From Fastidiosibacter lacustris (GTDB lineage: Bacteria > Pseudomonadota > Gammaproteobacteria > Francisellales > Francisellaceae): a stretch of DNA of 32,000 bases. The stretch covers positions 1-32,000 of the forward strand of contig NZ_QLIR01000004.1 in assembly GCF_003428155.1 (NCBI RefSeq), given 5' to 3'. The notes under the pieces were generated by a model. The model saw nothing but the letters and a program-made list of their open reading frames with translations, ran no database searches and was not told the DNA's origin. This document shows positions 876-17,519 of this stretch, piece by piece. The translations under genes were made by a program, and so were the position numbers. The number at the start of each line of letters is the position of its first letter. Position 1 is the stretch's first letter.

Positions 876-3800
876 ATGGTATCAATGACTTACCGTGATT
901 TAAAAGTTTTAAAAAATAGAAATCTTGCAGAAGAATACAATAAAATCTGCATAATAATAAGTCAATCTTCCTGGTTAAATGAATTTATTACTGTATTAAG
1001 AGCAGAAGGATGGCAAATTAAAGCAGTTTATACAGACGTTTATGCTTCAATAATGCATAACGATAAGGAAATACTATGTTATCCACTACATAAAGCACTG
1101 TGTGACATTGATAAAACACAGGTAAATTATGTTTTTAGTATTGTGAATCCAATTATCTTGCCTCAACGTATTTTACAAAAATCAATTTGTGTGAACTTTC
1201 ATCCTGCATTGTTACCAAAATATGCTGGAGTATGTCCTGTAAATTGGGCAATTTTTCAGTCTGAAAAAACACATGGTTATACATGGCACTTTTGCAGTGA
1301 GAAAATCGATCAAGGTGCAATATTATTTCAATCAAAAATACCTGTATTGCCAAATGATAATGCAAAAAAACTTATGTTAAGGTGCTACAAAAAAGCTGTT
1401 GATGAGTTTTCTCACGTTTTGGAAATACTACTAGATTCTAAGTTTTGTCTTAGAGAAACAGATTCGATTGAGTATTATGGATATAATAGAAAGCCAAATT
1501 TTTTATTAACAGATTTTGAAGATTATGCAAGTTGCAAAAGACTATTAAATGCATCTGAATCAATGGATTCCTATAACGATTTTGGTGTTGTCAAAATACT
1601 TTTGGGCAAACACTTTTATATTCTTGATGTGCTGAATAAGGCTTTCAATACATCCAAGCAAGCCGATGATAGTATAATTTATTGGAATGGACAGAAATAT
1701 TATGCGCAACTGCGGTCCCTCTATGGTGATTCTGTGATTGAAAATGCGGTCTTGTCTCACATAGAAAGCATATATATACAAAATTATTTTACCCATGTTG
1801 ATAAGCTTGGAAAATACGAATATTATTGGCTGGGTCTTTTAAGAAATTTTATGAGCCCTAAGTTGTTTTCGTATGTTAATTATGCCTATAAGAATGTCAA
1901 TAATCGATTATCTTTTCAATGTGATTTCTTGAATGAAATTGATTTACCTTATAATAAAAAAGAACTTATTTTTGCTTTATGGTGTTGTATTATTTTAAAA
2001 ATCACAAATTACCAAACAAGCACAATTTGGTTAACCCATAACTATGCAATAAATGAAAAGTTACAACCATTGTTTTACCCTTATATTCCTTTTTTGTTAA
2101 AGGAGGTTGAACACACTAGTATCTTGGAATTTATTCAGTTTTTTATAGAGAAAAAAAATAAAATACGAGATAAATATTTTTTTCTGACAGATTTATTCGC
2201 AAGAGATTTTGTACTAAAAGAGGAAAAGGAGCAGTTTTCAAGCTTTTCATTTAGCTTTTCGTATGCAAATAGCATTGCATGTCAAAATCATCCTGTAATT
2301 TTTTATTATGACCAAAATAATAATATGATGTACGTTGATTGTTTTTTACCTGAGAATAGCTTTCTAATAAAAGCTTTAGCACAGTTTGAAACATACTTTA
2401 ACATACTAACTTCATATCATTTGAATTCGAAGTTAAATGAAATTTCGTTGAATAACAGGGTAAAAACGCAAGCTTTTGATATGAATAGGGTCTTGATGCA
2501 AAATACTAAATACCAAAAGCGACTTGAGCAATTGGTTAAAGATAATGCATATGCTCAACCAAATCATACTATTGTTGTACAAAATGATCAGCAATATACC
2601 TATAAAACGTTAGTGAACGATGTCTTACATTTGTCACAAGCTTTGTCTTTCTATATCCCAGCTTCAACAATTATTGGTTTAATTGTTCCACGAGGTTACG
2701 TTTTTATCAAAAATATGTTAGCTATTTTGGAAAATAAGTCTGCCTATTTACCGATTTTCCATGAAATGGATGAAGCTGTCATGCTTGATTTGATGCTCGA
2801 AATTGGCACGTATGGGTTTATCACGGATCGCATGGTTGAGGATGATAGAGTTGCATCCAAAATTAAAATAGATTCAAACTGCTTTTTTTATATTTTTAAG
2901 CAAAAAGAAAAAGTACGGTATTTATCTGATAACGTAGCATACGTGATGTTTACTTCTGGTTCCACAGGCAAACCAAAAGGGATTCCAATTAAACATTCTA
3001 ATATTATTAATTTATGTGAAACAGATTTTATTAGAGGGATTACAAAAAATAAAAAAGTGATGCATAACAGCCAGGTTTCATTTGATGCAGCTACGTTTGA
3101 GATTTGGGGTTCTTTGTTAAACACATCAACTATTTACATTTTGGAAAACTGTTATTTAATGAGAGAAAAGGCTTACGTTTTTGATTTTTGTAAGAAGTAT
3201 TCTATTAATACAATGTGGATGAGCACAAAGCTGTTTGAGTCTTATTTAACAGACATGGCATTATTATCACGGAGCGAGCTTGAATATTTGGTGTATGGCG
3301 GTGAAAGTTGTAATGTTAGCTTAATAAAAAAATTCAGTTCATCTTGCCCATTAAAGTTGATCCATGTATATGGTCCAACAGAGAATACCGTATTTAGTAC
3401 TATACATGAATGGAAACATGACGATGAGAGCTTTTATAATGACTATCCAAATATAGGCAAGCCCTTGAAAAATGTTGAAGTTGAGGTTTATGATAAATAT
3501 TTCAATACAATGCCTTACTACGTTCCTGAGAAGTTGTTTTTGTCTGGTTTAAGCCTTTTTGAAGGTTATCTCAACGCCCCTAATACAACGATTTCTTCCC
3601 AAGATAATAGAGCTGTTTACAACTCAGGAGACATTTGTTACCTAGATGGGAAAGGAGATTTACACATCATTGGTCGTGATGACAAACTCGTTAAATTAAA
3701 TGGTTATCGTATTGAATTGCGTCATGTGGAAAGTATTTTAGCAATTAACCCTGCTGTTACATCCTGTAAAGCTGAAGTGTTCAAGATGGATAATGGTCAG

Positions 3801-5621
3801 CAGTACTTGGTAGCTTTTATCATTAGTGACAATATTAATCAGGATGAATATGAGAAGAGTATTCGCCATACATTACCAAAGTATATGATCCCAAGCTATT
3901 ACTTATATTTGGATAAGTGGCCATTAACAAGAAATGGTAAGCTAGATAGAAAAGCATTAGTCGAACGTTTTAATACTCATATCACCCAGTATCATGAACA
4001 AAAGTTAATTTGTTCAAATACTCTTAGCTTAGATAATATAATTACATTATTTCAAAAAGTTTTACCTAGTAAACATATTGCCTTAGATGGTGATTTTTTT
4101 GACTTGGGTGGAGATTCTTTATCTTTAGTCTATTTAAAGACTGAAGTAAAAAAAAGCTTTGATTTTGATTTGTCATTAGTGCAATTTTTAGAAGCTCCAA
4201 CTCCTAGGGGATTGTATGGTTTATTAACGGATGAAAACAGTACTTCAAATTACAACGTAACGGATTATATATTAAAACGGTTTAATGAATACAAAAAAGA
4301 AATTGATGAGTCTGTAGTAACCGATTCGTTTGACATGGAGGTAAGTTGCAAAAACATTCTTCTTACAGGAGCGACTGGATTTTTAGGAAGCGAGGTCTTG
4401 CGATATTTGTGTCAATATAAGAAAAATACACAAGTATATTGTTTGATAAGAGCAAAAGGTCAAGCATTTGACGTAAGAGTAAATGAATTGTTGCAAAGTT
4501 TGAAGCTTGATCAAGTAAATTTCAGTAATATTCATTTTATCAATGGTGACCTTGAAAAGTTTCAATTTGGACTTTCAGACGACGATTACCATAATTTGGC
4601 TTGCAAGGTAACCTCAATTATTCACTGTGCTTGCCACGTTCACCATTTATATAGCTATAAACAACTTGAGCAAGCCAACGTTTTTTCAACGCTAGAATTG
4701 ATCAAGTTTGCATTTTTAGGGGTAAGGAAAATGATTGTTTACACATCTTCAATATCCGCAGTTGTGCCAAAAGATGTGTCGCAAACGATTTATGAAAAAG
4801 TTTATACAGACATCCATGATTTAGCTTTAGCCAATGGCTATAATCAGACAAAATACGTTAGTGAGCTGCTACTAAATTATGCTCATCAAAAAGGGATGGC
4901 ATGCATTATTGTTAGACCTGGCTGGATTGTTGGTAATAGCCAAAGTGGTTATTTTATAACAGAAAACGATCATTATTCTATGATACTTCGTTCAGTATTA
5001 AGTTTTGGTTATGCGCCAGAATTGAATTTCAATATCAACTTTATACCTGTTGATACATTGTCAGAATTGCTAGTTAAACTAGCAAATCAAGGAAAAGAAA
5101 ATAACAAAAAAATGCAGATTATGAACCTTAAAAATAGCAAACCTCTAGCATGGCAAAGGTTGTTGAAGTTTTTAAATATGAAAAAAAGAAAAGTTATTTA
5201 TGATACAGGTCAATGGTATCAAACACTGTTAAATACAGACGAAAAATCACCGCTATTTGTTTTAAAATCACTTTATGAATCAGCAGACAAATTAAGGTTA
5301 CTGTCAAAGTATCATATTATGAAAATCGATACGACTACATGTAAAGATTGGATGCGTCAATGTGGTATAACATTCCCAAGACTAGGAAGTAAAATCATGA
5401 TGAATTTATTTCAGGCAATTGTTCCAGAATCAACGAATACGCCAAAACCTTTTATGTTGACAAACTGGTGGCAAATTATAGGTGATTTTTTAAATACAGC
5501 AAAAATAAAGGTGATAAAAATACTCAGGAAAAACAAAATAATTTCTATTGTTGGTCCCTTGATTCTCACGTCATTATTGATATATATTTTTGATTTTTTA
5601 AGCATAGTCATTTTAGAGTAA
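876..5621 (+). CDS. Stand-alone single-module NRPS-like enzyme: formyltransferase - condensation-like remnant - adenylation - peptidyl carrier - thioester reductase - C-terminal TM helix
   Basis: 1581-aa ORF. ATG 885 is the more likely start, since the GGGGG at 871-875 lies 9 nt upstream of it and directly abuts ATG 876. Motifs read in the translation: formyltransferase VNFHPALLPKYAG and EKIDQGAI; adenylation A3 YVMFTSGSTGKPKG, A4 FDAATFE, A5 VYGPTEN, A7 YNSGD, A8 GRDDKLVKLNGYRIEL, A9 LPKYMIPS, A10 NGKLDRKAL; carrier FFDLGGDSLS; reductase LLTGATGFLGSE and YNQTKYVSE; terminal hydrophobic helix IISIVGPLILTSLLIYIFDFLSIVIL. Confidence 0.85.
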   Translation: MVSMTYRDLKVLKNRNLAEEYNKICIIISQSSWLNEFITVLRAEGWQIKAVYTDVYASIMHNDKEILCYPLHKALCDIDKTQVNYVFSIVNPIILPQRILQKSICVNFHPALLPKYAGVCPVNWAIFQSEKTHGYTWHFCSEKIDQGAILFQSKIPVLPNDNAKKLMLRCYKKAVDEFSHVLEILLDSKFCLRETDSIEYYGYNRKPNFLLTDFEDYASCKRLLNASESMDSYNDFGVVKILLGKHFYILDVLNKAFNTSKQADDSIIYWNGQKYYAQLRSLYGDSVIENAVLSHIESIYIQNYFTHVDKLGKYEYYWLGLLRNFMSPKLFSYVNYAYKNVNNRLSFQCDFLNEIDLPYNKKELIFALWCCIILKITNYQTSTIWLTHNYAINEKLQPLFYPYIPFLLKEVEHTSILEFIQFFIEKKNKIRDKYFFLTDLFARDFVLKEEKEQFSSFSFSFSYANSIACQNHPVIFYYDQNNNMMYVDCFLPENSFLIKALAQFETYFNILTSYHLNSKLNEISLNNRVKTQAFDMNRVLMQNTKYQKRLEQLVKDNAYAQPNHTIVVQNDQQYTYKTLVNDVLHLSQALSFYIPASTIIGLIVPRGYVFIKNMLAILENKSAYLPIFHEMDEAVMLDLMLEIGTYGFITDRMVEDDRVASKIKIDSNCFFYIFKQKEKVRYLSDNVAYVMFTSGSTGKPKGIPIKHSNIINLCETDFIRGITKNKKVMHNSQVSFDAATFEIWGSLLNTSTIYILENCYLMREKAYVFDFCKKYSINTMWMSTKLFESYLTDMALLSRSELEYLVYGGESCNVSLIKKFSSSCPLKLIHVYGPTENTVFSTIHEWKHDDESFYNDYPNIGKPLKNVEVEVYDKYFNTMPYYVPEKLFLSGLSLFEGYLNAPNTTISSQDNRAVYNSGDICYLDGKGDLHIIGRDDKLVKLNGYRIELRHVESILAINPAVTSCKAEVFKMDNGQQYLVAFIISDNINQDEYEKSIRHTLPKYMIPSYYLYLDKWPLTRNGKLDRKALVERFNTHITQYHEQKLICSNTLSLDNIITLFQKVLPSKHIALDGDFFDLGGDSLSLVYLKTEVKKSFDFDLSLVQFLEAPTPRGLYGLLTDENSTSNYNVTDYILKRFNEYKKEIDESVVTDSFDMEVSCKNILLTGATGFLGSEVLRYLCQYKKNTQVYCLIRAKGQAFDVRVNELLQSLKLDQVNFSNIHFINGDLEKFQFGLSDDDYHNLACKVTSIIHCACHVHHLYSYKQLEQANVFSTLELIKFAFLGVRKMIVYTSSISAVVPKDVSQTIYEKVYTDIHDLALANGYNQTKYVSELLLNYAHQKGMACIIVRPGWIVGNSQSGYFITENDHYSMILRSVLSFGYAPELNFNINFIPVDTLSELLVKLANQGKENNKKMQIMNLKNSKPLAWQRLLKFLNMKKRKVIYDTGQWYQTLLNTDEKSPLFVLKSLYESADKLRLLSKYHIMKIDTTTCKDWMRQCGITFPRLGSKIMMNLFQAIVPESTNTPKPFMLTNWWQIIGDFLNTAKIKVIKILRKNKIISIVGPLILTSLLIYIFDFLSIVILE

Positions 5622-5665: not shown

Positions 5666-7180
5666 TTGGATAAACAAGATAAAGAATTAAACGTTATAGT
5701 AAATCAATATGGAATAATAGAATGTATTGATAGCAAATGTGGAAGTAGCTCAAATTTTACTGCTTTTGTAGGTAAAAGTTATAATGAAGTTTTTAAAAAA
5801 ACACATCTATTTGGTTTGGATATAGACATCAAGGATATAGTACGACTTGATTGGAAATCGAGGAATAATGATATTGAATGCAAAAGGCATTATATAGTAG
5901 TAGTTAATAACCGTGATCACGGTATCGTAAAATATAAGTTAATTAATATAGATGAAATTTTATATACAGCTGAAATGGTAATTAAAGCTAAGACTCATGA
6001 GTTAGAAAGTATTATTGATATGATACCAGGAATCCTTTATTGGAAAGATGGAAGGGGAACCTACATAAAAACAAATAACTCTATACTTGCTGGTGGCATT
6101 AAAGTTAAAGATTTGCTTGGAAAAAATGACAAAGAGATTTGGTCAGAAAAAGCAGAAGAACTCAGTCAGCATGATAATCAAATTATGATGGGCATAGTTG
6201 AAGAAAAAGTGTTAGAAGAGTCTACAGTAGAAAATGGAGAAATTAAATATTATATTGCACATAAGAAGCCATACAAAGACCATAATAACAAAATAATTGG
6301 CATTATTGGCTTATCGATAGATATAACAGAACGCAAAAAACTTGAAGCTGAGACCATCCGCCAAAAAAATCAACTTGAAAAAAAGTTAGAATATCAAAAG
6401 AACTATTTTAAAGCTTATGGATACGATTATGTGGACGCACTTAAAAAAATCTCCGATGCACTTGAGAATATTGAAAAACGACTAATGAGACTTGATATGC
6501 CAACTGGGGTACGTAGTGAACTCAATGATGAGTTTTATAATATTAATGAAAGTTTATCTGACATATACTCGCTTTATCAAAAAATAAATACATCAATATT
6601 AGATCAAGAACGCAATAATGATGATCTAGAAAAAAATCAAATGCCACTTCACTTAGAACATTTAGTTGAAACGGAAGTCGATTTAGCAAAGGCTTGCATT
6701 AGTGCTGAATTTGATGTGAATGTCTCGTTTGATATGGATGAAAAATCCAAACAAAAGCTTTATGTCGATTATAAAAAAGTCAGGCACATTATCCGCACTT
6801 TATTTGCCAATTACACAAAAGCCATAGATAGAGACAGTAGAAAAAAAGACATTCGTTTAACTATCACTGCCGAAGATGGTATGAAAGATAAATTGTATGT
6901 TACTTTTGAATTTGATGGCAATATGCCCTTTCTAGAATTAGAAGACGGTAATATTCGCGCAGAGCATCTTGTCTATAAATCTCAAAGCCATATCGCCACA
7001 GATAAACATAACTTTGCTTATGATCTTTCCTTAGCCAAGTATTATGCTGACTTGCTCTGTGATGGCGAAGAATTGAATGATTCATTATTTGAAGGACCAA
7101 GCTTTTCGTTTACCTTACCGTTTCGCAAAGTCGAAAACGATGGCAACGCTAAAGTATTTAAGCCTGTGTTGATTGAATGA
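5666..7180 (+). CDS. Cytoplasmic PAS-domain sensor protein with a degenerate histidine-kinase-like C-terminal half
   Basis: 504-aa ORF with a TTG start 7 nt after AAAGGAG (5652-5658), 44 nt after the NRPS-like gene. PAS core: IPGILYWKDGRGTYIKTNN...IIGIIGLSIDITERKKLE. The H-box position reads FKAYGYDYVDAL, with no His. The N-box-like IIRTLFANYTKAI is retained. The G1 position (FEFDGNMPF) and G2 position (FAYDLSLAKY) lack the glycines. No TM segment is seen. Confidence 0.7.
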   Translation: MDKQDKELNVIVNQYGIIECIDSKCGSSSNFTAFVGKSYNEVFKKTHLFGLDIDIKDIVRLDWKSRNNDIECKRHYIVVVNNRDHGIVKYKLINIDEILYTAEMVIKAKTHELESIIDMIPGILYWKDGRGTYIKTNNSILAGGIKVKDLLGKNDKEIWSEKAEELSQHDNQIMMGIVEEKVLEESTVENGEIKYYIAHKKPYKDHNNKIIGIIGLSIDITERKKLEAETIRQKNQLEKKLEYQKNYFKAYGYDYVDALKKISDALENIEKRLMRLDMPTGVRSELNDEFYNINESLSDIYSLYQKINTSILDQERNNDDLEKNQMPLHLEHLVETEVDLAKACISAEFDVNVSFDMDEKSKQKLYVDYKKVRHIIRTLFANYTKAIDRDSRKKDIRLTITAEDGMKDKLYVTFEFDGNMPFLELEDGNIRAEHLVYKSQSHIATDKHNFAYDLSLAKYYADLLCDGEELNDSLFEGPSFSFTLPFRKVENDGNAKVFKPVLIE

Positions 7181-11324: not shown

Positions 11325-12557
11325 CTATCTCTGTTCTTCTTTAATAAAAAGTAAAATAATCAAAGCTAGAACAATACTGCCAGGCAACATACTAAATGCG
11401 ATTTCATAGCTTTGAATACTATAGTTTGCACCAGAAACACCCGGCTGTGTGTAATCTAAAATCATACCGACCAATCCTTCAAATGTACCACCAAATATTG
11501 GTTCACCTGTGTTGATCAATGCCACTGCGGTTGCCATTACCCATAACGGATTGACCTTACGCCCTACGACAAACACCAACGTAAAAGCACTAGTGACAAC
11601 TCCATACAAAATACAGCACACAATTAGCTGCCATACGCTTAAATGTAAATATAAAATTGCTAACAATGACAACAATCCAAGCACGGTACACCACATCATG
11701 ATTGGTACACAGCGTATTTTAACTGAAAGCTTTCCCATGATTGGCGCACCGATCCCCATACCAATAAAAATACAGGATATAAAATAACTTGCCTGAGTTA
11801 TCGTTAAATCATACTTTTGAACAAAAAAGCTATTCCCCCATAAACTACCAAACGCATCAATCGTCGTAAAAATAAGTCCTGAATATGTCATTAATAATCA
11901 ATTATTATGCGACATGATCACACGTTTAATCATGTGTATAATACTTTTTTGCTCTGCTTTTGACTGAATTTCCTCTTCAACGTTCACAGGTCCCTGCTTA
12001 GAATCATCACGTACAACAAACCAATAGATAATTGCAAATATAACACCAATAATAGCACAACAGTACAACCCTTGTTGCCATCCAACGGCATTAAATAACG
12101 CAGATAATGGCGCTTGTCCTACTACCGCACCTGTCATTGCCGCCGTTAATAACAAACTACTGGCAACTGAAAACCCTTTTTCATCAAACCATGTAGCCGC
12201 AGCTTTCATGTAACTTACTGTAGCAAACGCGACTCCAATTCCCATCATCGTACGTCCTATAAAGGCAAAAACGATGTGAGTTGAGGCTGCAAACAATAAA
12301 ATACCAAATGCACTTACGAGCAATGACACAGTACTAATGCTTCTACAGCCAAAGCGATCTAATAACAAACCTGCAAAAGGTTGTACCAGCAAAACACAAT
12401 ACAAAAACATGGCTGACAAGAAACCCATTTGCGCCGAGTTAAGGTCAAAATGAATTTTAATGTCACCTGCAATCAAGCTCGGAAAGACTAAAGCAATGTA
12501 CTTATAGAACAACAAAAATGAACTCAAAACAATAACAATCCACGCATATCCTTTCAT
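11325..12557 (-). pseudogene. MFS transporter interrupted by a single in-frame TGA (two 6-TM halves: 11898-12557 and 11325-11891)
   Basis: The N-half carries MFS motif A, GLLLDRFGCR. The TGA stop at 11898-11900 and the next ATG at 11889-11891 are in the same frame, 2 codons apart (...MSHNN*LLMTYSG...). The stop falls in the central cytoplasmic loop. Confidence 0.7.
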
Positions 12558-12895: not shown

Positions 12896-13273
12896 ATGAA
12901 AGAGATAATTCAAACCAATCAAGCGCCACAAGCGATTGGCCCATATGTTCAAGCAGTGAAAATCAAAGATTTTATCTATACATCAGGTCAAATTCCGTTA
13001 AAGGCTAATGGTACATTGGTTGAGGGTGATATAAAAGTACAAACTCAACAGGCGATGCAAAACTTAAAAGCGATACTTGAGGCTTCAGGAAGTAGCATGA
13101 CTAAGATTATTAAGACGACGTGTTTTATCGCTGATATGAATGATTTTGCTGCATTTAACGAAGTGTATGCCACTTTTTTTGCAGGCATAACTCCACCTGC
13201 ACGCTCTTGTGTTGAAGTAGCCAGATTACCGAAAGATGTGTTGATTGAGGTTGAAGCGATCGCAATAAGTTGA
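12896..13273 (+). CDS. ridA: RidA/YjgF-family reactive enamine/imine deaminase
   Basis: 125 aa with GPYVQAV, TSGQIPL and ARSCVEVARLPKDVLIEVEAIA. Confidence 0.9.
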   Translation: MKEIIQTNQAPQAIGPYVQAVKIKDFIYTSGQIPLKANGTLVEGDIKVQTQQAMQNLKAILEASGSSMTKIIKTTCFIADMNDFAAFNEVYATFFAGITPPARSCVEVARLPKDVLIEVEAIAIS

Positions 13274-13384
13274 CAAAAATAAACTTGATTAAAATATAAA
13301 CAAAACTTATAAGAATGGTAAATTTCTCACAAAGATTTAGTTAAAATCCTACAGAAATTCTTTTTGTTTTAAAACATAATGACA

Positions 13385-13495
13385 TCCAAGCAATGGATGG
13401 CTGTCTTAATGGATGAAGAAAGAAAAGGATAGCCCCCCCCGCACGGATGAATTAATTAGGATAAGGATATCCTGAAAAGAAAGCCCGTGATTTTG
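13385..13495 (+). ncRNA. Candidate CsrA-binding (Rsm/Csr-type) small RNA; hypothesis only
   Basis: Six GGAU motifs lie on the + strand at 13395, 13411, 13427, 13445, 13459 and 13465. Three are in the A(U/C)GGAUG context. The last sits in the hexaloop of the hairpin AGGAU-AAGGAU-AUCCU (13458-13473). An outer stem CACGG (13442-46) / CCGUG (13485-89) is followed by AUUUU. The region lies in a convergent intergenic gap and overlaps the queG 3' end antisense. Confidence 0.3.
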
Positions 13496-14570
13496 ATTGT
13501 TCACTGATTGCCCAATTGATATGTTCGATGAGTAGTTTGTTTTCAGAATATTTATTTTTTGCGCTAATTAAAATCCTTAAAATTTCTTCGCTAAAAGGGG
13601 CATTACCAAGGGCTGTGTAAATATTTCTAAGCCATGCTTGATAACCAATTCTATGAATAGCAGAACCTTTAGTTTTGTTAAAAAAAGTTGTTTCTGACCA
13701 ATTTGCAAGATCAAGGAGTTTACTATTATCCAGTTGATGTCTAGGTTGAAAGTCTGCTTCGGTTGTTACAGCTGCCTTTTTATTGATTGGGCATACCAGT
13801 TGACAATCATCACAGCCATAAATACGGTTGCCTATGGCTTTGCGAAATTGTATTGGGATTATCCCTTTATTTTCAATTGTTAAATAGGAGATACATTTTT
13901 TTGCATCAATTATCCGTCCATCAATTATGGCATGAGTTGGGCAAGCTTTAATACAAGCTTGGCATTTCCCGCATTGATCATATGCTTTAGGATAAGAAAA
14001 AGAACTAAAATCTAAATTAGAATAGATGCAGCCTAAAAAAAAGAACGAGCCATCTTTCTCATTCAATAGGTTGCTGTTTTTACCAATCCAGCCAAGTCCT
14101 GCCTTTTCAGCTAAAGGTTTTTCCAATACTGGAGCACTATCTGTAAACACGCGAGCATGATGTGAAGGAAACAAATTTGTGATAAACTCACTAAGCTTAT
14201 CGAGTTTTTTACGTAATACTTTATGATAGTCGCGACCATGAGCATAGACAGAGATAGCAGCAACTTCATTGGCAGTTATGAATTTTTGACGAATATTCTT
14301 AAAATGATAAGGGGCTGGCAGATAATTTAAGCGTACGGTAATGACACTCTTGGTGCCTTCAACGAGTTCTTGTGGTGTGTAGCGTTTGCTACCATGCTTT
14401 ACCATATAGTCAAGGTCAGCATGGAAACCTTTTTCAACCCATTCTTGATATTTAGGAATGTAGTCTGATAGATCACAATTTGTAGCACTAATATCAGAAA
14501 AGCCAAGTTCATCAAGTGCGTGGTGCTTAATCTTATTCCACTCTTTCAAGCTTAGTTTTTGTACGTTCAA
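13452..14570 (-). CDS. queG: Epoxyqueuosine reductase
   Basis: 372 aa with the 4Fe-4S motifs CGKCQACIKACPTHAI and CDDCQLVCPINK, and a typical N-terminus (...GFSDISATNCDLS...). Confidence 0.9.
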   Translation of the reverse strand: MNVQKLSLKEWNKIKHHALDELGFSDISATNCDLSDYIPKYQEWVEKGFHADLDYMVKHGSKRYTPQELVEGTKSVITVRLNYLPAPYHFKNIRQKFITANEVAAISVYAHGRDYHKVLRKKLDKLSEFITNLFPSHHARVFTDSAPVLEKPLAEKAGLGWIGKNSNLLNEKDGSFFFLGCIYSNLDFSSFSYPKAYDQCGKCQACIKACPTHAIIDGRIIDAKKCISYLTIENKGIIPIQFRKAIGNRIYGCDDCQLVCPINKKAAVTTEADFQPRHQLDNSKLLDLANWSETTFFNKTKGSAIHRIGYQAWLRNIYTALGNAPFSEEILRILISAKNKYSENKLLIEHINWAISEQSKSRAFFSGYPYPN

Positions 14571-14594: not shown

Positions 14595-16703
14595 CTATGG
14601 CAACGCACGTTCTATTTTAAGACAGATTTTCAAGCGCTTTAAACTACGAATGACGCGCGCAAGATGGACACGATCCGTTATTTCAATAATAGTTTCAACA
14701 ATACCACATTGTTGATCGGATTCTAGGATGTTAAAGTTTAGGATATGTGCATTTTGATGAGCAATATTGGCAGTGACTTTAGCAATAGCGCCATGTACGT
14801 TTTGGATGTTAATAAAAAGTTTGGCAGAAAAATTATGTTTAATTCCCTTCCTCCAATCGGTTTCGATTAACTCATGAGTCTTAGTAGCTTTGTTGAGCTC
14901 GGAACATTTGTTTCTATGTATAGCTAACCCCTTATCCAAAGTAAGTAGACCAGTAATAGGGTCATCTGGAATGGGAGTACAGCAGGTGGCAAGCTGGCAG
15001 ATATTTTTCTCATCAATAAGCATCTTGCACGAGATATCCTTATTAATGCCAATTCCATCGAGGTTAATTTTTTCCTCAATAAGGTCAATAAAGGTATTGG
15101 CAGAGAAATGCACTTGCCCAATAGCAACGTAAAGTTCAGTAGTGCTTGGAAAATTAAATTTGGTCAAAGCTTCTTGCATTAACTCTCCAGAGATACTGTT
15201 TAAGTTAATGTGCCTTTTTAATAAAGCTTGGCTGAGAATTTGTTGACCAATGCGTACAAGTTCATCATGTTCATAGCGTTTGAGTGCATGTTTAATCGCA
15301 TGTTTTGCGCGTGCTGTGGTGATGAAAGTTAGCCATGAGGGATTGGGGTGTGCTGCTGGTGAAGTAATGATTTCCACCGTATCACCATGCGTCAATACAT
15401 AGCTTAAAGGTGTAAGACGGCGATTAACTTTAGCTGCAATGCAATGATTACCAATATCGGTATGAATATGATAAGCAAAGTCGATACAAGTTGCGTTTAT
15501 TGGCAGTTCTATGATTTCACCATTTGGCGTAAAAACATATACTTCGTCAGGAAATAAATCAAGTTTAACACTTTCAATAAAATCAGTTGATTTAGTGACA
15601 TGTTGTTGAAGATCAGAAAGCTTATCTAGCCATTTTTGAGCGCTATCATGACTTAATGATTTTGCTTTATAAATCCAATGCGCAGCAACCCCTTTTTCAG
15701 CTGTATCGTCCATTATTTTGGTTTTGATTTGCACCTCAATCGGTACCCCATAAGGTCCAAATACAGTAGTGTGAAGCGATTGGTAACCATTAGCTTTTGG
15801 GGTAGCAATGTAATCTTTAAAGCGTCCAGGAATAGGACGAAAGATTTCATGGATGGCACCAAGGATCGAATAACATTCGCGGCGACTAGGTGCAATAACT
15901 TTATAGGCATAGATGTCCATAATTTCTGAGAAAGACATTTCACGATCACGCATTTTTCGATAAATGCTGTATAAGCGTTTTTTGCGTCCATTTACTAAGT
16001 TTTCATTTTCAATTAAGCCTACTAAGTGGTGTTGAAGTCGTTCTAGGATTTTACGAAACAAGCGGTCACGATGCTTTTGTGCTTGGAGTACTTTTGCTTT
16101 TAGTGTTTTATAGCGATAGGGGTAGGTGGCTTCAAATGCAAGTTCTTCAAAACTGTTTTTGAAGTGATGCATACCAAGTCTATGTGCGATAGGAGCGTAT
16201 ATCTCTAGAGTTTCTAAAGCAATGCGTCGGCGTTTGTCAGGTCTAAGTGGCGCAAGAGTGGTCATATTATGTAAGCGATCAGCAAGCTTGATTAAGATAA
16301 CACGAATATCTTTTACCATTGCCAATATCATCTTGCGGAAATTCTCAGCTTGCTGCTCAGCTTTAGAGGTAAATTCAATTTTGCTTAATTTAGTAACGCC
16401 TTCAATAAGCTGTGCGGTCTTATCACCATAGCGTATGGCAATATCTTTTGCCTGAATTTCAGTATCTTCAATTACATCGTGTAGAAGAGAGGCGATGATG
16501 GTTTCACAATCAAGGCGCATTCCAGCAAGCACACATGCAACTGCCAACGGATGGGTAAAATAAGGTTCGCCAGAGTTTCTAACCTGTGATTCATGTGCAT
16601 CCGCGCCAAATAAAAAGGCATCAACAACAAGCGCACGCTGTTTTGGTGTTAAATAACTGTGTATGACTTTATTGAGTTTATAAAACAAAAACATGTTACT
16701 CAT
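14595..16703 (-). CDS. spoT: Bifunctional (p)ppGpp synthetase/hydrolase
   Basis: 702 aa with an intact HD hydrolase motif HDVIEDT, the synthetase region RFKDYIATPKANGYQSLHTTV, and TGS and ACT-like C-terminal domains. Confidence 0.9.
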   Translation of the reverse strand: MSNMFLFYKLNKVIHSYLTPKQRALVVDAFLFGADAHESQVRNSGEPYFTHPLAVACVLAGMRLDCETIIASLLHDVIEDTEIQAKDIAIRYGDKTAQLIEGVTKLSKIEFTSKAEQQAENFRKMILAMVKDIRVILIKLADRLHNMTTLAPLRPDKRRRIALETLEIYAPIAHRLGMHHFKNSFEELAFEATYPYRYKTLKAKVLQAQKHRDRLFRKILERLQHHLVGLIENENLVNGRKKRLYSIYRKMRDREMSFSEIMDIYAYKVIAPSRRECYSILGAIHEIFRPIPGRFKDYIATPKANGYQSLHTTVFGPYGVPIEVQIKTKIMDDTAEKGVAAHWIYKAKSLSHDSAQKWLDKLSDLQQHVTKSTDFIESVKLDLFPDEVYVFTPNGEIIELPINATCIDFAYHIHTDIGNHCIAAKVNRRLTPLSYVLTHGDTVEIITSPAAHPNPSWLTFITTARAKHAIKHALKRYEHDELVRIGQQILSQALLKRHINLNSISGELMQEALTKFNFPSTTELYVAIGQVHFSANTFIDLIEEKINLDGIGINKDISCKMLIDEKNICQLATCCTPIPDDPITGLLTLDKGLAIHRNKCSELNKATKTHELIETDWRKGIKHNFSAKLFINIQNVHGAIAKVTANIAHQNAHILNFNILESDQQCGIVETIIEITDRVHLARVIRSLKRLKICLKIERALP

Positions 16704-16998: not shown

Positions 16999-17187
16999 AT
17001 GTTAATTTTAACAAGAAAAATAGGCGAGACGGTCATGATTGGGGACGAGGTGACGGTGACTGTTCTTGGTATAAAAGGCAATCAGGTTCGTTTGGGCATC
17101 AATGCACCTAAAGATGTCTCTGTTCATAGAGAAGAAATTTTTGTTCGTATAAAAGGAGAACATTCTTTTGGAGACTCAGAAAACTGA
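16999..17187 (+). CDS. csrA: Carbon storage regulator / global translational repressor
   Basis: [47 protein letters not shown], with AAGGAG 9 nt upstream. Confidence 0.95.
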
Positions 17188-17263: not shown

Positions 17264-17357
17264 GGAGAGATGGCCGAGAGGCTGAAGGCGCTCCCCTGCT
17301 AAGGGAGTATGGGGACCAAAAACTCCATCGGGGGTTCGAATCCCCCTCTCTCCGCCA
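17264..17357 (+). tRNA. tRNA-Ser (anticodon GCU), CCA encoded
   Basis: Acceptor GGAGAGA/TCTCTCC, anticodon stem-loop CTCCC-CTGCTAA-GGGAG, long variable arm, T-arm GGGGG-TTCGAAT-CCCCC. The csrA-serV synteny matches that of enterobacteria. Confidence 0.9.
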
Positions 17358-17519
17358 TATTAAATTTTTTAAATATCTTTCAATTCCTTTCCTTTTAAAT
17401 TAAAGCGATACAGTAACAAAATAACAGAAAAATTCAAATCCCTATACCGTTAAAATACCGTAGAATGTTTTATGCCCTATTACACACTATAGAACACTAA
17501 ATGACCCTTGGCTTTCAGA

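What the first reader, a model, noticed from the sequence alone, without database searches (positions are those of the whole stretch)
13385..13495. Periodic cluster of six GGAU motifs in a convergent intergenic gap: candidate CsrA-sponge sRNA near csrA
Seen in sequence:
- GGA triplets, all followed by U, occur on the + strand at 13395, 13411, 13427, 13445, 13459 and 13465. The spacings are 16, 16, 18, 14 and 6 nt.
- Three sit in the context A(U/C)GGAUG. This resembles the CsrA SELEX consensus RUACARGGAUGU as I recall it.
- One lies in the loop of a perfect hairpin AGGAU-AAGGAU-AUCCU. Another lies in the loop of UCUU-AAUGGAUG-AAGA.
- In a genome this AT-rich, far fewer than one GGAT would be expected by chance in 80 nt.
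- The region lies between convergent genes (ridA stop 13273, queG stop 13452), so it is not a 5' leader.
- A CATAAT -10-like hexamer is at 13375-13380.
- An imperfect AGAAATTCT palindrome at 13353-13361 weakly resembles the LetA/GacA-type box reported upstream of Legionella rsmY/rsmZ. It is one base short.
- CACGG/CCGUG plus AUUUU (13442-13494) could terminate the transcript.

Inference: this is an Rsm/Csr-type CsrA-titrating RNA, or a CsrA-bound ridA 3' UTR. It partly overlaps the queG 3' end in antisense.
Basis: partly seen in the sequence, partly recalled or inferred. Interest (0 to 1): 0.55.

Follow-up and report, generated by a model that had tools for sequence, protein, structure and literature searches.

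The report
Conserved GGA-rich small RNA, likely CsrA sponge
Between ridA and queG of Fastidiosibacter lacustris lies a conserved gene for a roughly 110-nt small RNA with six invariant GGAU motifs, most likely an undescribed decoy RNA that soaks up the global regulator CsrA, a known kind of regulator.

Summary
Six GGAT lie on the + strand at 13395-13468, against about 0.23 expected, and none of 2000 simulated windows reached six.

The window is Fastidiosibacter lacustris (Thiotrichales, Fastidiosibacteraceae), not Legionella.

The same element sits just 3' of queG, on the opposite strand, in eight distinct lineages. These include two Cysteiniphilum species, Caedibacter taeniospiralis and four MAGs.
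- All 24 GGAT positions are invariant, against 28 of 66 other core positions (p=1e-7).
- The core is more conserved (78-92%) than the queG coding DNA (73-78%).
- A -10 hexamer (CATAAT/CATACT/TATAAT) keeps a fixed position. An upstream block and a terminal hairpin followed by a U-run are also shared.
- Two GGA always fall in hairpin loops, and one of those hairpins shows compensatory changes.
- In Cysteiniphilum the upstream neighbour is a divergent rpiA, so this is its own gene and not a ridA 3' UTR.
- Caedibacter has duplicated the 3' module and carries 12 GGA.
- A canonical CsrA is encoded in the window and in named relatives.

No Rfam Csr/Rsm model matches and no full GacA/UvrY box is present.

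Verdict: a new sequence family of a known kind, the Rsm/Csr-type CsrA sponge. Transcription and CsrA binding remain untested.

The parts
13315..13334 (+). Conserved upstream block ATGGTAAATTTCTCACAAAG, about -73 to -54 from the predicted start. On the - strand it reads TGTGAGA (13331-13325), identical to the left half-site of the E. coli csrB/csrC UvrY box. It is a candidate activator site.
   Evidence: ATGG..A(A/T)AT.TC is conserved in all 8 lineages at a fixed 60-61 nt from the -10. It is unique in the window. The half-site comparison uses PMC4682653 and the TGTRRGA scan.
13343..13353 (+). Conserved block AAAATCCTACA next to the -35 position. On the - strand it reads TGTAGGA (13353-13347), a second half-site-like motif 22 nt from the first, in the same orientation.
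   Evidence: TCCTACA is identical in 6 of 8 lineages. Two of the 11 TGTRRGA matches in the whole window lie here.
13354..13374 (+). Promoter spacer. The distance from the TCCTA block to the -10 is constant in the lineages counted, while the sequence varies.
   Evidence: Alignments A2 and A4. I counted 23 nt between TCCTA and CATA in the window, L081, L084 and L086. The sequence is unrelated between lineages.
13375..13380 (+). -10 hexamer CATAAT.
   Evidence: It occupies the same column in all 8 lineages as CATAAT, CATACT or TATAAT. In L131 the homologous site is part of TTGAAT-16-TATAAT, a 10/12 match.
13388..13496 (+). Predicted small RNA of about 105-110 nt. The ends are inferred: the start from the -10 and the end from the U-run at 13491-14494 read as 13491-13494.
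   Evidence: The covariance model built from the 8 orthologues matches 13388-13477 at 110 bits. The fold is -27.9 kcal/mol with z=-2.8. The core is 78-92% identical across lineages, against 73-78% for queG DNA.
13395..13398 (+). GGAU site 1 (CAAUGGAUGG), near the 5' end.
   Evidence: Invariant in 8 lineages. Unpaired probability is 0.2-0.8.
13404..13419 (+). Hairpin H1, UCUU-AAUGGAUG-AAGA, presenting GGAU site 2 (13411-13414) in its loop.
   Evidence: Two pairs show C-G to U-A compensatory changes. L131 has a re-registered 7-bp version, UAGCUUU/AAAGCUA. The GGA is unpaired with probability 0.8-1.0 in 7 of 8 lineages.
13427..13430 (+). GGAU site 3 (AAAGGAUAGC).
   Evidence: Invariant GGAU. Pairing varies between lineages.
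13433..13440 (+). C8 tract, conserved as a C-rich run. Its role is unexplained.
   Evidence: A CCC core is invariant in 8 lineages. Such a run is unusual in a 36% G+C window.
13445..13448 (+). GGAU site 4 (GCACGGAUGAA). Its GG can pair with a CC just before the U-run.
   Evidence: GGAUGA is invariant. The window pairs CACGG/CCGUG. Other lineages pair differently but analogously.
13456..13475 (+). Hairpin H2, UUAGGAUA-AGGA-UAUCCUGA. GGAU site 5 (13459-13462) is in the stem and site 6 (13465-13468) is in the loop. H2 is the core of the terminal stem-loop and is a near-palindrome, so it may terminate transcription in both directions.
   Evidence: AGGAUA.GGAUAUCCUGA is invariant in 8 lineages. Loop GGA unpaired probability is about 1.0 in 5 of 8 lineages and 0.56-0.88 in the other three.
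13485..13494 (+). CCGUG, the 3' arm of the outer stem, followed by AUUUU. This is the predicted end of the RNA.
   Evidence: A run of 4-5 U follows the terminal stem-loop in 7 of the 8 lineages; L131 has only UUUGUU. The consensus terminator scan does not call it, because the stem has only 2 G-C pairs.
13452..13487 (-). C-terminal tail of queG (...SRAFFSGYPYPN*) that reads antisense into the RNA gene.
   Evidence: The roughly 11-residue extension is not shared with the 23 aligned QueG relatives; only Caedibacter (P0005) has a long tail, and its sequence is unrelated. In relatives only the stop codon region overlaps the U-run.
16999..17187 (+). csrA, the presumed protein partner.
   Evidence: NCBIfam CsrA equivalog at 111.7 bits against a cutoff of 73. 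Orthologues at 90-93% identity occur in Caedibacter and Cysteiniphilum.

Best explanation
An independently transcribed, non-coding small RNA of about 105-110 nt, on the + strand from roughly 13388 to 13496, acts as a CsrA sponge of the Rsm/Csr type.

Proposed mechanism:
- It is made from its own sigma-70-type promoter. The -10 is CATAAT at 13375-13380. The -35 is weak. Conserved upstream blocks at -73 to -54 and -45 to -35 probably bind an activator.
- It ends at a terminal stem-loop followed by a U-run.
- Six invariant GGAU motifs, spaced 14-18 nt apart apart from one 6-nt gap, offer high-affinity sites for CsrA dimers. Two sit in conserved hairpin loops and three in weakly structured linkers.
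- When the RNA accumulates it titrates CsrA away from mRNA leaders and so relieves CsrA control.

Shown here: the motif cluster is non-random, the whole unit is under strong purifying selection in 8 lineages, the motif positions are the most constrained part, and a canonical CsrA is present in the window and in named relatives.

Inferred: the transcription start and end, CsrA binding, and the identity of the activator.
For: 1. Enrichment. Six GGAT fall in 75 nt against about 0.23 expected, and 0 of 2000 simulations reached 6.
2. Orthologues. The element lies next to the queG 3' end in 8 distinct lineages (nhmmer; covariance model, 80-116 bits).
3. Motif constraint. All 24 GGAT positions are invariant against 28 of 66 other core positions, Fisher p=1e-7. 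Spacing is also kept.
4. Overall constraint. The core is more conserved than the neighbouring coding DNA.
5. Own gene. The -10 is conserved at a fixed position. The spacer has constant length and variable sequence. L131 has a 10/12 sigma-70 promoter at that spot. In Cysteiniphilum the upstream gene is a divergent rpiA, which excludes a 3' UTR origin.
6. Structure. Sites 2 and 6 are predicted in hairpin loops in nearly all lineages (sites 2 and 6 score 0.25 and 0.88 in the duplicated Caedibacter RNA; site 6 is 0.56-0.58 in L129 and L131). H1 has 2 compensatory pairs plus a re-registered stem in L131.
7. Motif context. Three or four sites read CA-N-GGAUG, close to the CsrA SELEX consensus RUACARGGAUGU, in which GGA lies in hairpin loops (PMC4347634).
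8. Modular growth. Caedibacter has a tandem duplicate of the 3' module with all its GGAU retained, giving 12 GGA in total. This is how known sponges vary.
9. Partner. A canonical CsrA is encoded in the window and, at 90-93% identity, in Caedibacter and Cysteiniphilum. The element is absent next to queG in Francisella novicida, a genus that PMC7366521 reports to lack CsrA.
10. Weak resemblance. The best sub-threshold Rfam hit to the Caedibacter copy is PrrB_RsmZ on the predicted strand (15.5 bits, E=0.21).
Against: - There are no expression data. The strand and the ends are predictions.
- No Rfam Csr/Rsm family reaches threshold, and none appears even at E<=10 in the window.
- No full GacA/UvrY palindrome TGTAAGN6CTTACA lies upstream at up to 3 mismatches. 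Only half-site-like TGTGAGA and TGTAGGA are present, and I noticed those post hoc.
- Covariation is thin. H2 never varies, only 2 pairs covary, and 12 of 500 shuffles reach the observed score.
- Site 5 is buried in a stem, and site 3 is paired in the window's minimum-energy fold.
- The consensus scans call no + strand promoter or terminator in the window.
- H2 is a near-palindrome at the end of queG, so part of the conservation could reflect a terminator for queG.
- The conserved C-tract has no role in the sponge model.
Confidence: 0.75

Rival explanations
1. The RNA is real and conserved, but its main job is something other than CsrA sequestration. It could be a base-pairing regulator that uses the C-rich tract or the GGAU repeats, or a decoy for a different RNA-binding protein.
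For: The C-tract is conserved and has no role in the sponge model. No Csr/Rsm covariance model matches. No canonical GacA box is present.
Against: The most constrained positions are exactly the GGA(U) motifs, in the contexts and spacing that CsrA prefers. A canonical CsrA is present in the window and in named relatives. Module duplication that multiplies GGA sites fits titration better than base pairing.
Confidence: 0.12
2. The conserved block is the 3' end of queG read on the - strand: a 3' UTR with a terminator structure, possibly bidirectional. On this view the GGAU repeats on the + strand are the mirror image of AUCC repeats with no + strand function.
For: The element always follows queG. 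H2 is palindromic and sits at or just after the queG stop codon. The scan finds terminator-like sites only on the - strand.
Against: A terminator does not need about 200 nt of conserved sequence. It also does not explain a fixed-position TATAAT-like hexamer facing the other way, an upstream conserved block, or invariant GGAU spaced over 75 nt. The - strand folds no better than shuffled sequence (z=-1.3 against -2.4 to -2.8 for the + strand). The U-G pair at the base of H2 would be C-A on the - strand. The - strand terminator-like hairpins in the window are not conserved in relatives.
Confidence: 0.07
3. It is a DNA-level element: an array of GGATG-type binding sites for a DNA-binding protein, or a remnant of a mobile or repeat element inserted after queG.
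For: The motif repeats at a fairly regular 14-18 bp. The presence/absence pattern among relatives (absent in L085, L127, L128, L132) could suggest insertion.
Against: There are no terminal repeats or mobility genes. The motifs all point one way, and a promoter-like element and a U-run sit in matching orientation. Hairpin covariation points to selection at the RNA level.
Confidence: 0.03
4. It is a CsrA-bound 3' UTR of ridA.
For: In the window and in 5 relatives ridA lies directly upstream on the same strand.
Against: In C. litorale, C. halobium and MAG L129 the upstream gene is a divergently transcribed rpiA, yet the element and its upstream block are intact. A conserved -10 lies between ridA and the GGA cluster.
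Confidence: 0.03

Closest known systems
Pseudomonas RsmX / RsmY / RsmZ (Rfam RF02144, RF00195, RF00166)
   Same: Similar size (about 110-130 nt). Five to eight GGA motifs, partly in hairpin loops and partly in single-stranded linkers. A stand-alone gene with a weak -35, an upstream activating sequence roughly 60-80 nt before the start, and a 3' terminator hairpin. Function is CsrA/RsmA titration. The comparison details are from my own knowledge. The best sub-threshold Rfam hit of the Caedibacter copy is PrrB_RsmZ.
   Different: No significant sequence or structure match: nothing at E<=10 in the window, and 15.5 bits against a gathering score of 44 in Caedibacter. No TGTAAGN6CTTACA palindrome. 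A conserved C-tract. A different genomic context, convergent with queG.
Legionella pneumophila RsmX/RsmY/RsmZ and the LetS/LetA cascade
   Same: Short GGA-rich sponges in an AT-rich gammaproteobacterium associated with amoebae or protists, controlling a CsrA switch (PMC5338858).
   Different: The organism is Fastidiosibacter (Thiotrichales), not Legionella. I could not verify the LetA consensus sequence in the held literature.
Coxiella burnetii CbsR12 (and CbsR1)
   Same: A lineage-specific CsrA-binding sRNA with only 4-5 A(N)GGA sites, found in a bacterium where no RsmY/Z homologue was recognisable by sequence (bioRxiv 10.1101/679134). This is a precedent for new sponge families outside Rfam.
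   Different: CbsR12 also base-pairs with mRNAs and is processed by RNase III. There is no sequence relationship. No binding has been tested for the present RNA.
E. coli / Salmonella CsrB and CsrC
   Same: The same principle: many GGA sites titrate CsrA. The conserved upstream block read on the - strand (TGTGAGAAATTTACCAT; TGTGCGACATTTGCCAT in C. halobium) resembles the weakly symmetric csrC UvrY site TGTGAGACATTGCCGATA. TGTAGGA near the -35 recalls the TGTAGGAGA accessory motif of csrB (PMC4682653).
   Different: CsrB and CsrC are 2-3 times longer with 9-22 sites (my own knowledge). Their UvrY inverted repeat lies about 180 nt upstream. The present match is limited to a half-site, and I noticed it post hoc.

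Membership tests
Rsm/Csr-type CsrA-sequestering sRNA (functional class) | A short non-coding region with many GGA motifs, far above chance | tested here: met
   Six GGAT in 75 nt against about 0.23 expected; 0 of 2000 simulations reach 6. No ORF of 40 aa or more on the + strand in 13274-13451.
Rsm/Csr-type CsrA-sequestering sRNA (functional class) | GGA motifs exposed in hairpin loops or single-stranded segments | tested here: met
   Sites 2 and 6 lie in loops (unpaired probability 0.8-1.0 for site 2 in 7 of 8 lineages; about 1.0 for site 6 in 5 of 8 and 0.56-0.88 in the rest). Sites 1, 3 and 4 are intermediate. Site 5 is in a stem. H1 is supported by 2 compensatory pairs. These are predictions only.
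Rsm/Csr-type CsrA-sequestering sRNA (functional class) | GGA motifs conserved among orthologues while the flanks drift | tested here: met
   24 of 24 motif positions are invariant in 8 lineages against 28 of 66 others, p=1e-7.
Rsm/Csr-type CsrA-sequestering sRNA (functional class) | A cognate CsrA/RsmA protein encoded in the genome | tested here: met
   csrA at 16999-17187 passes the NCBIfam equivalog cutoff. It is 75% identical to E. coli CsrA. Orthologues are named in Caedibacter and Cysteiniphilum, which carry the element, and in Facilibium, where the element was not examined.
Rsm/Csr-type CsrA-sequestering sRNA (functional class) | An independent transcription unit with its own promoter and terminator | tested here: inconclusive
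   The -10 is conserved at a fixed position. L131 has a 10/12 promoter. The divergent rpiA upstream in Cysteiniphilum excludes read-through. A terminal hairpin and U-run are present. No RNA data exist, and the window's own promoter and terminator fall below the scan thresholds.
Rsm/Csr-type CsrA-sequestering sRNA (functional class) | Direct, GGA-dependent binding of several CsrA dimers, and relief of CsrA control in vivo | not testable with these tools
   This needs gel shifts, RIP-seq and genetics.
Rsm/Csr-type CsrA-sequestering sRNA (functional class) | Transcription driven by a GacA/UvrY/LetA-type response regulator through an upstream palindrome (TGTAAGN6CTTACA) | tested here: not met
   No match with up to 3 mismatches lies anywhere near the element. 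Only half-site-like TGTGAGA (13325-13331, -) and TGTAGGA (13347-13353, -) occur in the conserved upstream blocks. I could not test whether a GacA orthologue is present in the genome.
Rfam families CsrB (RF00018), CsrC (RF00084), RsmY (RF00195), PrrB_RsmZ (RF00166), RsmX (RF02144), TwoAYGGAY (RF01731) | A covariance-model score at or above the family's gathering threshold | tested here: not met
   The window shows only tRNAs at gathering thresholds. None of these families appears at E<=10 in 13200-13600. The Caedibacter copy scores 15.5 bits against 44 for PrrB_RsmZ.
Legionella RsmY/RsmZ | A Legionella genomic context and a conserved LetA box upstream | tested here: not met
   The organism is Fastidiosibacter lacustris. 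The AGAAATTCT palindrome lies in a spacer of non-conserved sequence.
Intrinsic (possibly bidirectional) terminator of queG/ridA | A G+C-rich hairpin immediately followed by a U-run, with nothing else conserved | tested here: not met
   H2 followed by a U-run could terminate transcription. However, conservation extends about 200 nt and includes a promoter-like -10 and four further GGAU sites. In L128 ridA and queG converge with only an 8-nt gap and no such element.

The most novel reading that the evidence does not exclude
This is the founding member of a previously unrecognised CsrA-sponge family specific to Fastidiosibacteraceae, a family that includes the emerging pathogen Cysteiniphilum and the Paramecium killer symbiont Caedibacter.

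On this reading it departs from the canonical Gac/Bar/Let scheme in three ways:
- It is wired to a regulator other than a classical GacA/UvrY palindrome binder, acting on direct-repeat TGTRRGA half-sites 22 bp apart.
- It carries a conserved C-tract that gives it a second, base-pairing or self-masking function.
- Its 3' end doubles as the terminator of the convergent queG gene.
Probability: 0.2. Interest if true: 0.65.

Novelty: new member of a known kind. Interest (0 to 1): 0.5.

Why it matters
CsrA is a master post-transcriptional switch, and its activity cannot be understood without knowing the RNAs that titrate it. I found no Csr/Rsm sRNA described for Fastidiosibacteraceae or Francisellaceae in the held literature, and Rfam has no model that detects this one.

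What the element offers:
- A concrete handle on CsrA regulation in three settings: culturable Fastidiosibacter and Cysteiniphilum (an emerging human and coral pathogen), and the obligate endosymbiont Caedibacter, where the sponge has expanded by module duplication.
- A covariance model that could seed a new Rfam family.
- A conserved upstream block that is a ready-made probe for the unknown upstream regulator.

The mechanism itself is well known, so this is an incremental advance and not a conceptual one.

Tried and rejected
- The genome-contig scan with a QueG alignment returned only distant gammaproteobacterial loci. I switched to exact-protein look-ups.
- A metagenome scan for AGGATANGGATATCCTGAAA gave 40 loci. 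Only L117 is a true homologue, nearly identical to Caedibacter. The rest are chance matches, including L120, which scores 24.7 bits and lies in coding-like sequence.
- The look-up for Facilibium QueG (P0008) found nothing.
- Rfam at a permissive threshold gave only noise such as snoRNA, U6atac and FTX.
- I looked for a second copy or paralogue in the window and in all loci with nhmmer and the covariance model. None was found.
- Other GGA clusters on the - strand (about 17318-17392 and 25300-25373) are the antisense of tRNA-Ser and the start of an ORF. They are not comparable.
- The 5' hairpin CAUCCA/UGGAUG of the first fold uses bases upstream of the predicted start and is not conserved in relatives, so I rejected it.
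- A 9-codon mini-ORF (ATGGTAAAT...TAA, 13315-13344) is seen in 4 relatives. I rejected it because it has no Shine-Dalgarno sequence, it is not preserved in L086 or L131, and its substitutions are not biased to third codon positions.
- A sigma-54 reading of TGGCAAAT..TCGCA fails because the GG-GC spacing is 10, not 12 (direct inspection).
- An alternative promoter further upstream (TTGATT-17-TTATAA, 13286-13314) is conserved only among the closer relatives and lacks the invariant final T of a -10. I kept it as a minor possibility.
- I could not verify the Legionella LetA box or the locations of rsmY and rsmZ. Sahr 2009 is not held, and a text search for AGAAATTTCT was uninformative.
- The supplement of the Caedibacter dual RNA-seq paper does not list this locus.
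Full report
**Observation**

Reading 13100-13700 and scanning for GGAT confirms six + strand GGAT at 13395, 13411, 13427, 13445, 13459 and 13465. Three are in the context A(U/C)GGAUG. The + strand rate in the window is 97 per 32000 nt, so about 0.23 are expected in 75 nt. This is the only stretch on either strand with more than three. None of 2000 first-order Markov simulations of the whole window reached six in any 75-nt stretch, and five was reached in 5 of 2000.

ridA is 12896-13273 (+) and queG is 13452-14570 (-), with spoT 14595-16703 (-) and csrA 16999-17187 (+) beyond.

**Organism**

QueG is 100% identical to the protein of Fastidiosibacter lacustris, which belongs to Thiotrichales, Fastidiosibacteraceae. 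The Legionella frame of reference was therefore wrong.

**Comparative evidence**

One genome-contig scan was lost to distant hits. I then fetched the DNA around individual QueG relatives.

The element is present immediately 3' of queG, on the opposite strand, in:
- Cysteiniphilum litorale (L081) and C. halobium (L082, L083);
- Caedibacter taeniospiralis (L084, record PGGB02000009.1; identity from PMC7297999);
- four MAG or metagenome lineages (L086, L129, L130, L131);
- a metagenome contig nearly identical to Caedibacter (L117).

It is absent next to queG in L085, L127 (Francisella novicida), L128 and L132.

In the alignment of eight distinct lineages (A4 and A5), every one of the six GGAT is invariant. 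That is 24 of 24 motif positions against 28 of 66 other positions of the 90-nt core (Fisher p=1e-7). The spacing is kept. The core is 78-92% identical to the window, more than the adjacent queG coding DNA at 73-78%.

**Is it its own gene?**

Four observations say yes.

1. The hexamer CATAAT (13375-13380) occupies the same column in all lineages, as CATAAT, CATACT or TATAAT. In the most divergent lineage, L131, the scan calls TTGAAT-16-TATAAT (10/12) exactly there, on the RNA strand.
2. The 23 nt upstream of the -10 are constant in length in the lineages I counted but unrelated in sequence, as expected of a promoter spacer.
3. Further upstream, two blocks are conserved: ATGGYAAATNTCNCACAAAG (13315-13334) and AAAATCCTACA (13343-13353). 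The first is unique in the window.
4. In Cysteiniphilum and L129 the upstream neighbour is a divergently transcribed rpiA instead of ridA, yet the element and its upstream blocks are intact. The 'ridA 3' UTR' alternative is therefore rejected.

Downstream, seven of the eight lineages have a run of 4-5 U shortly after a terminal stem-loop built on the invariant UAGGAUA-WGGA-UAUCCUG; L131 has only UUUGUU. In the window the GG of site 4 pairs with CC just before the U-run (CACGG/CCGUG). Other lineages make different but analogous pairs. The predicted RNA is thus about 13388-13496, or about 108 nt. Both ends are inferences.

**Overlap with queG**

The window's QueG carries an 11-residue C-terminal tail (SRAFFSGYPYPN) not shared with the 23 relatives in the alignment; only Caedibacter (P0005) has a long tail, and its sequence is unrelated. 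This tail is simply the ORF reading into the RNA gene. In relatives only the queG stop codon overlaps the U-run. Antisense control of queG is therefore not a conserved feature. The near-palindromic H2 may, however, serve as a terminator in both directions.

**Structure**

The + strand folds better than shuffled sequence (z=-2.4 to -2.8). The - strand does not (z=-1.3).

Across lineages two local hairpins recur.
- H1, (A)CCUU-AAYGGAUG-AAGG(U), shows two C-G to U-A compensatory changes. L131 has a re-registered 7-bp version, UAGCUUU/AAAGCUA.
- H2 is invariant, so it says nothing either way.

GGA sites 2 and 6 are predicted in loops in nearly all lineages: site 2 is unpaired at 0.8-1.0 in 7 of 8, and site 6 at about 1.0 in 5 of 8 and 0.56-0.88 in the other three. 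Sites 1, 3 and 4 lie in weakly structured segments. Site 5 is in the H2 stem. With eight closely related sequences the covariation support is modest: 12 of 500 shuffles reach the observed score.

**Link to CsrA**

The window's csrA passes the NCBIfam equivalog cutoff. Orthologues at 90-93% identity are named in Caedibacter and Cysteiniphilum, and at 89% in Facilibium.

The site contexts (CA-N-GGAUG) resemble the SELEX consensus RUACARGGAUGU, in which GGA lies in hairpin loops (PMC4347634). Spacings of 14-18 nt suit bridging by a CsrA dimer; that point rests on my own knowledge of Mercante et al. 2009 and was not verified here.

Caedibacter carries a tandem duplicate of the 3' module with all its GGAU kept, plus extra GGA in the linker, 12 in total. 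This is the modular kind of change expected of a titrating RNA.

PMC7366521 states that Francisella lacks CsrA, which agrees with the absence of the element at the syntenic site in F. novicida.

Proximity to csrA in the window (3.5 kb) is not conserved in relatives, so it carries no weight.

**Comparison with known families**

No Rfam Csr/Rsm model matches: the window shows only tRNAs at gathering thresholds and nothing relevant at E<=10. The Caedibacter copy gives a sub-threshold PrrB_RsmZ hit on the predicted strand (15.5 bits against 44). The RNA is therefore not a member of those sequence families, although it looks as if it works like them.

The canonical GacA/UvrY palindrome TGTAAGN6CTTACA is absent at up to 3 mismatches. 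Read on the - strand, the conserved upstream blocks contain TGTGAGA and TGTAGGA. These are 22 nt apart, in the same orientation, and account for 2 of only 11 TGTRRGA matches in the whole window. TGTGAGA is the left half of the E. coli csrB and csrC UvrY sites, and TGTAGGA(GA) is an accessory motif at csrB (PMC4682653). I noticed this after the fact. I treat it as a lead to the regulator and not as evidence.

I found no report of a Csr-type sRNA in Francisellaceae or Fastidiosibacteraceae in the held literature. Coxiella CbsR12 is a precedent for lineage-specific sponges that homology searches miss.

**Verdict**

The element is a strongly conserved, most likely independently transcribed small RNA.
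- Confidence that it is a functional conserved element: about 0.9.
- Confidence that it is a CsrA sponge: about 0.75.

It is a new sequence family of a well-known functional kind. Its value lies in the access it gives to CsrA regulation in an understudied lineage. The mechanism is not new. Transcription, the ends, CsrA binding and the upstream regulator all remain to be shown.

Noticed in passing
window 13452-13487 (-): The F. lacustris QueG ORF has an 11-residue C-terminal extension (SRAFFSGYPYPN) not shared with the 23 aligned relatives; only Caedibacter has a long tail, of unrelated sequence. It is encoded antisense to GGAU sites 5 and 6 of the RNA, so it is probably an accidental read-through into the RNA gene.
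   Followed up: partly
L084 6290-6400 (- strand); also L117 4387-4480: Caedibacter taeniospiralis carries a tandem duplication of the 3' module (GGAUAGC...GGAUAUCCUGAAAAC twice), doubling the number of GGA sites to 12. A 68-aa ORF is called on the opposite strand across the duplicated region and is probably spurious.
   Followed up: partly
window 13433-13440 (+): A C8 tract inside the RNA is conserved as a C-rich run in all 8 lineages, despite a 36% G+C genome. The sponge model gives it no role. It could mask GG dinucleotides or pair with G-rich targets.
   Followed up: no
L081 6100-6217, L082 6070-6187, L129 (- strand): In Cysteiniphilum-like lineages the 5' CAAYGGAUGGC of the RNA is complementary to GCCAUCUGUUG inside the last codons of queG (antisense). 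This gives a predicted long-range closing stem. The window has only a weak, G-U-rich equivalent.
   Followed up: partly
window 11325-11891 and 11898-12557 (-): Two adjacent ORFs each match half of an MFS transporter. This is probably one gene split by a frameshift or stop, either a pseudogene or a sequencing error.
   Followed up: no
window 876-5621 (+): A 1581-aa NRPS-like protein with an adenylation domain and a terminal thioester-reductase domain. It is followed by a 504-aa PAS-domain protein (5666-7180).
   Followed up: no
window 21811-24525 (+): A 904-aa ORF with no NCBIfam or Pfam match at the thresholds used.
   Followed up: no
L128 7080-7089; L132 5077-5261: In some relatives ridA and queG converge with only an 8-nt gap and no RNA gene. 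In L132 the spacer instead holds a G+C-rich inverted repeat (CCCTCCC.../GGGAGG...). The RNA gene is therefore either an insertion in one clade or has been lost repeatedly.
   Followed up: partly
window 13325-13331 and 13347-13353 (-): TGTGAGA and TGTAGGA are half-site-like motifs 22 nt apart in the conserved promoter-upstream blocks. They match half-sites reported at E. coli csrB and csrC for UvrY.
   Followed up: partly
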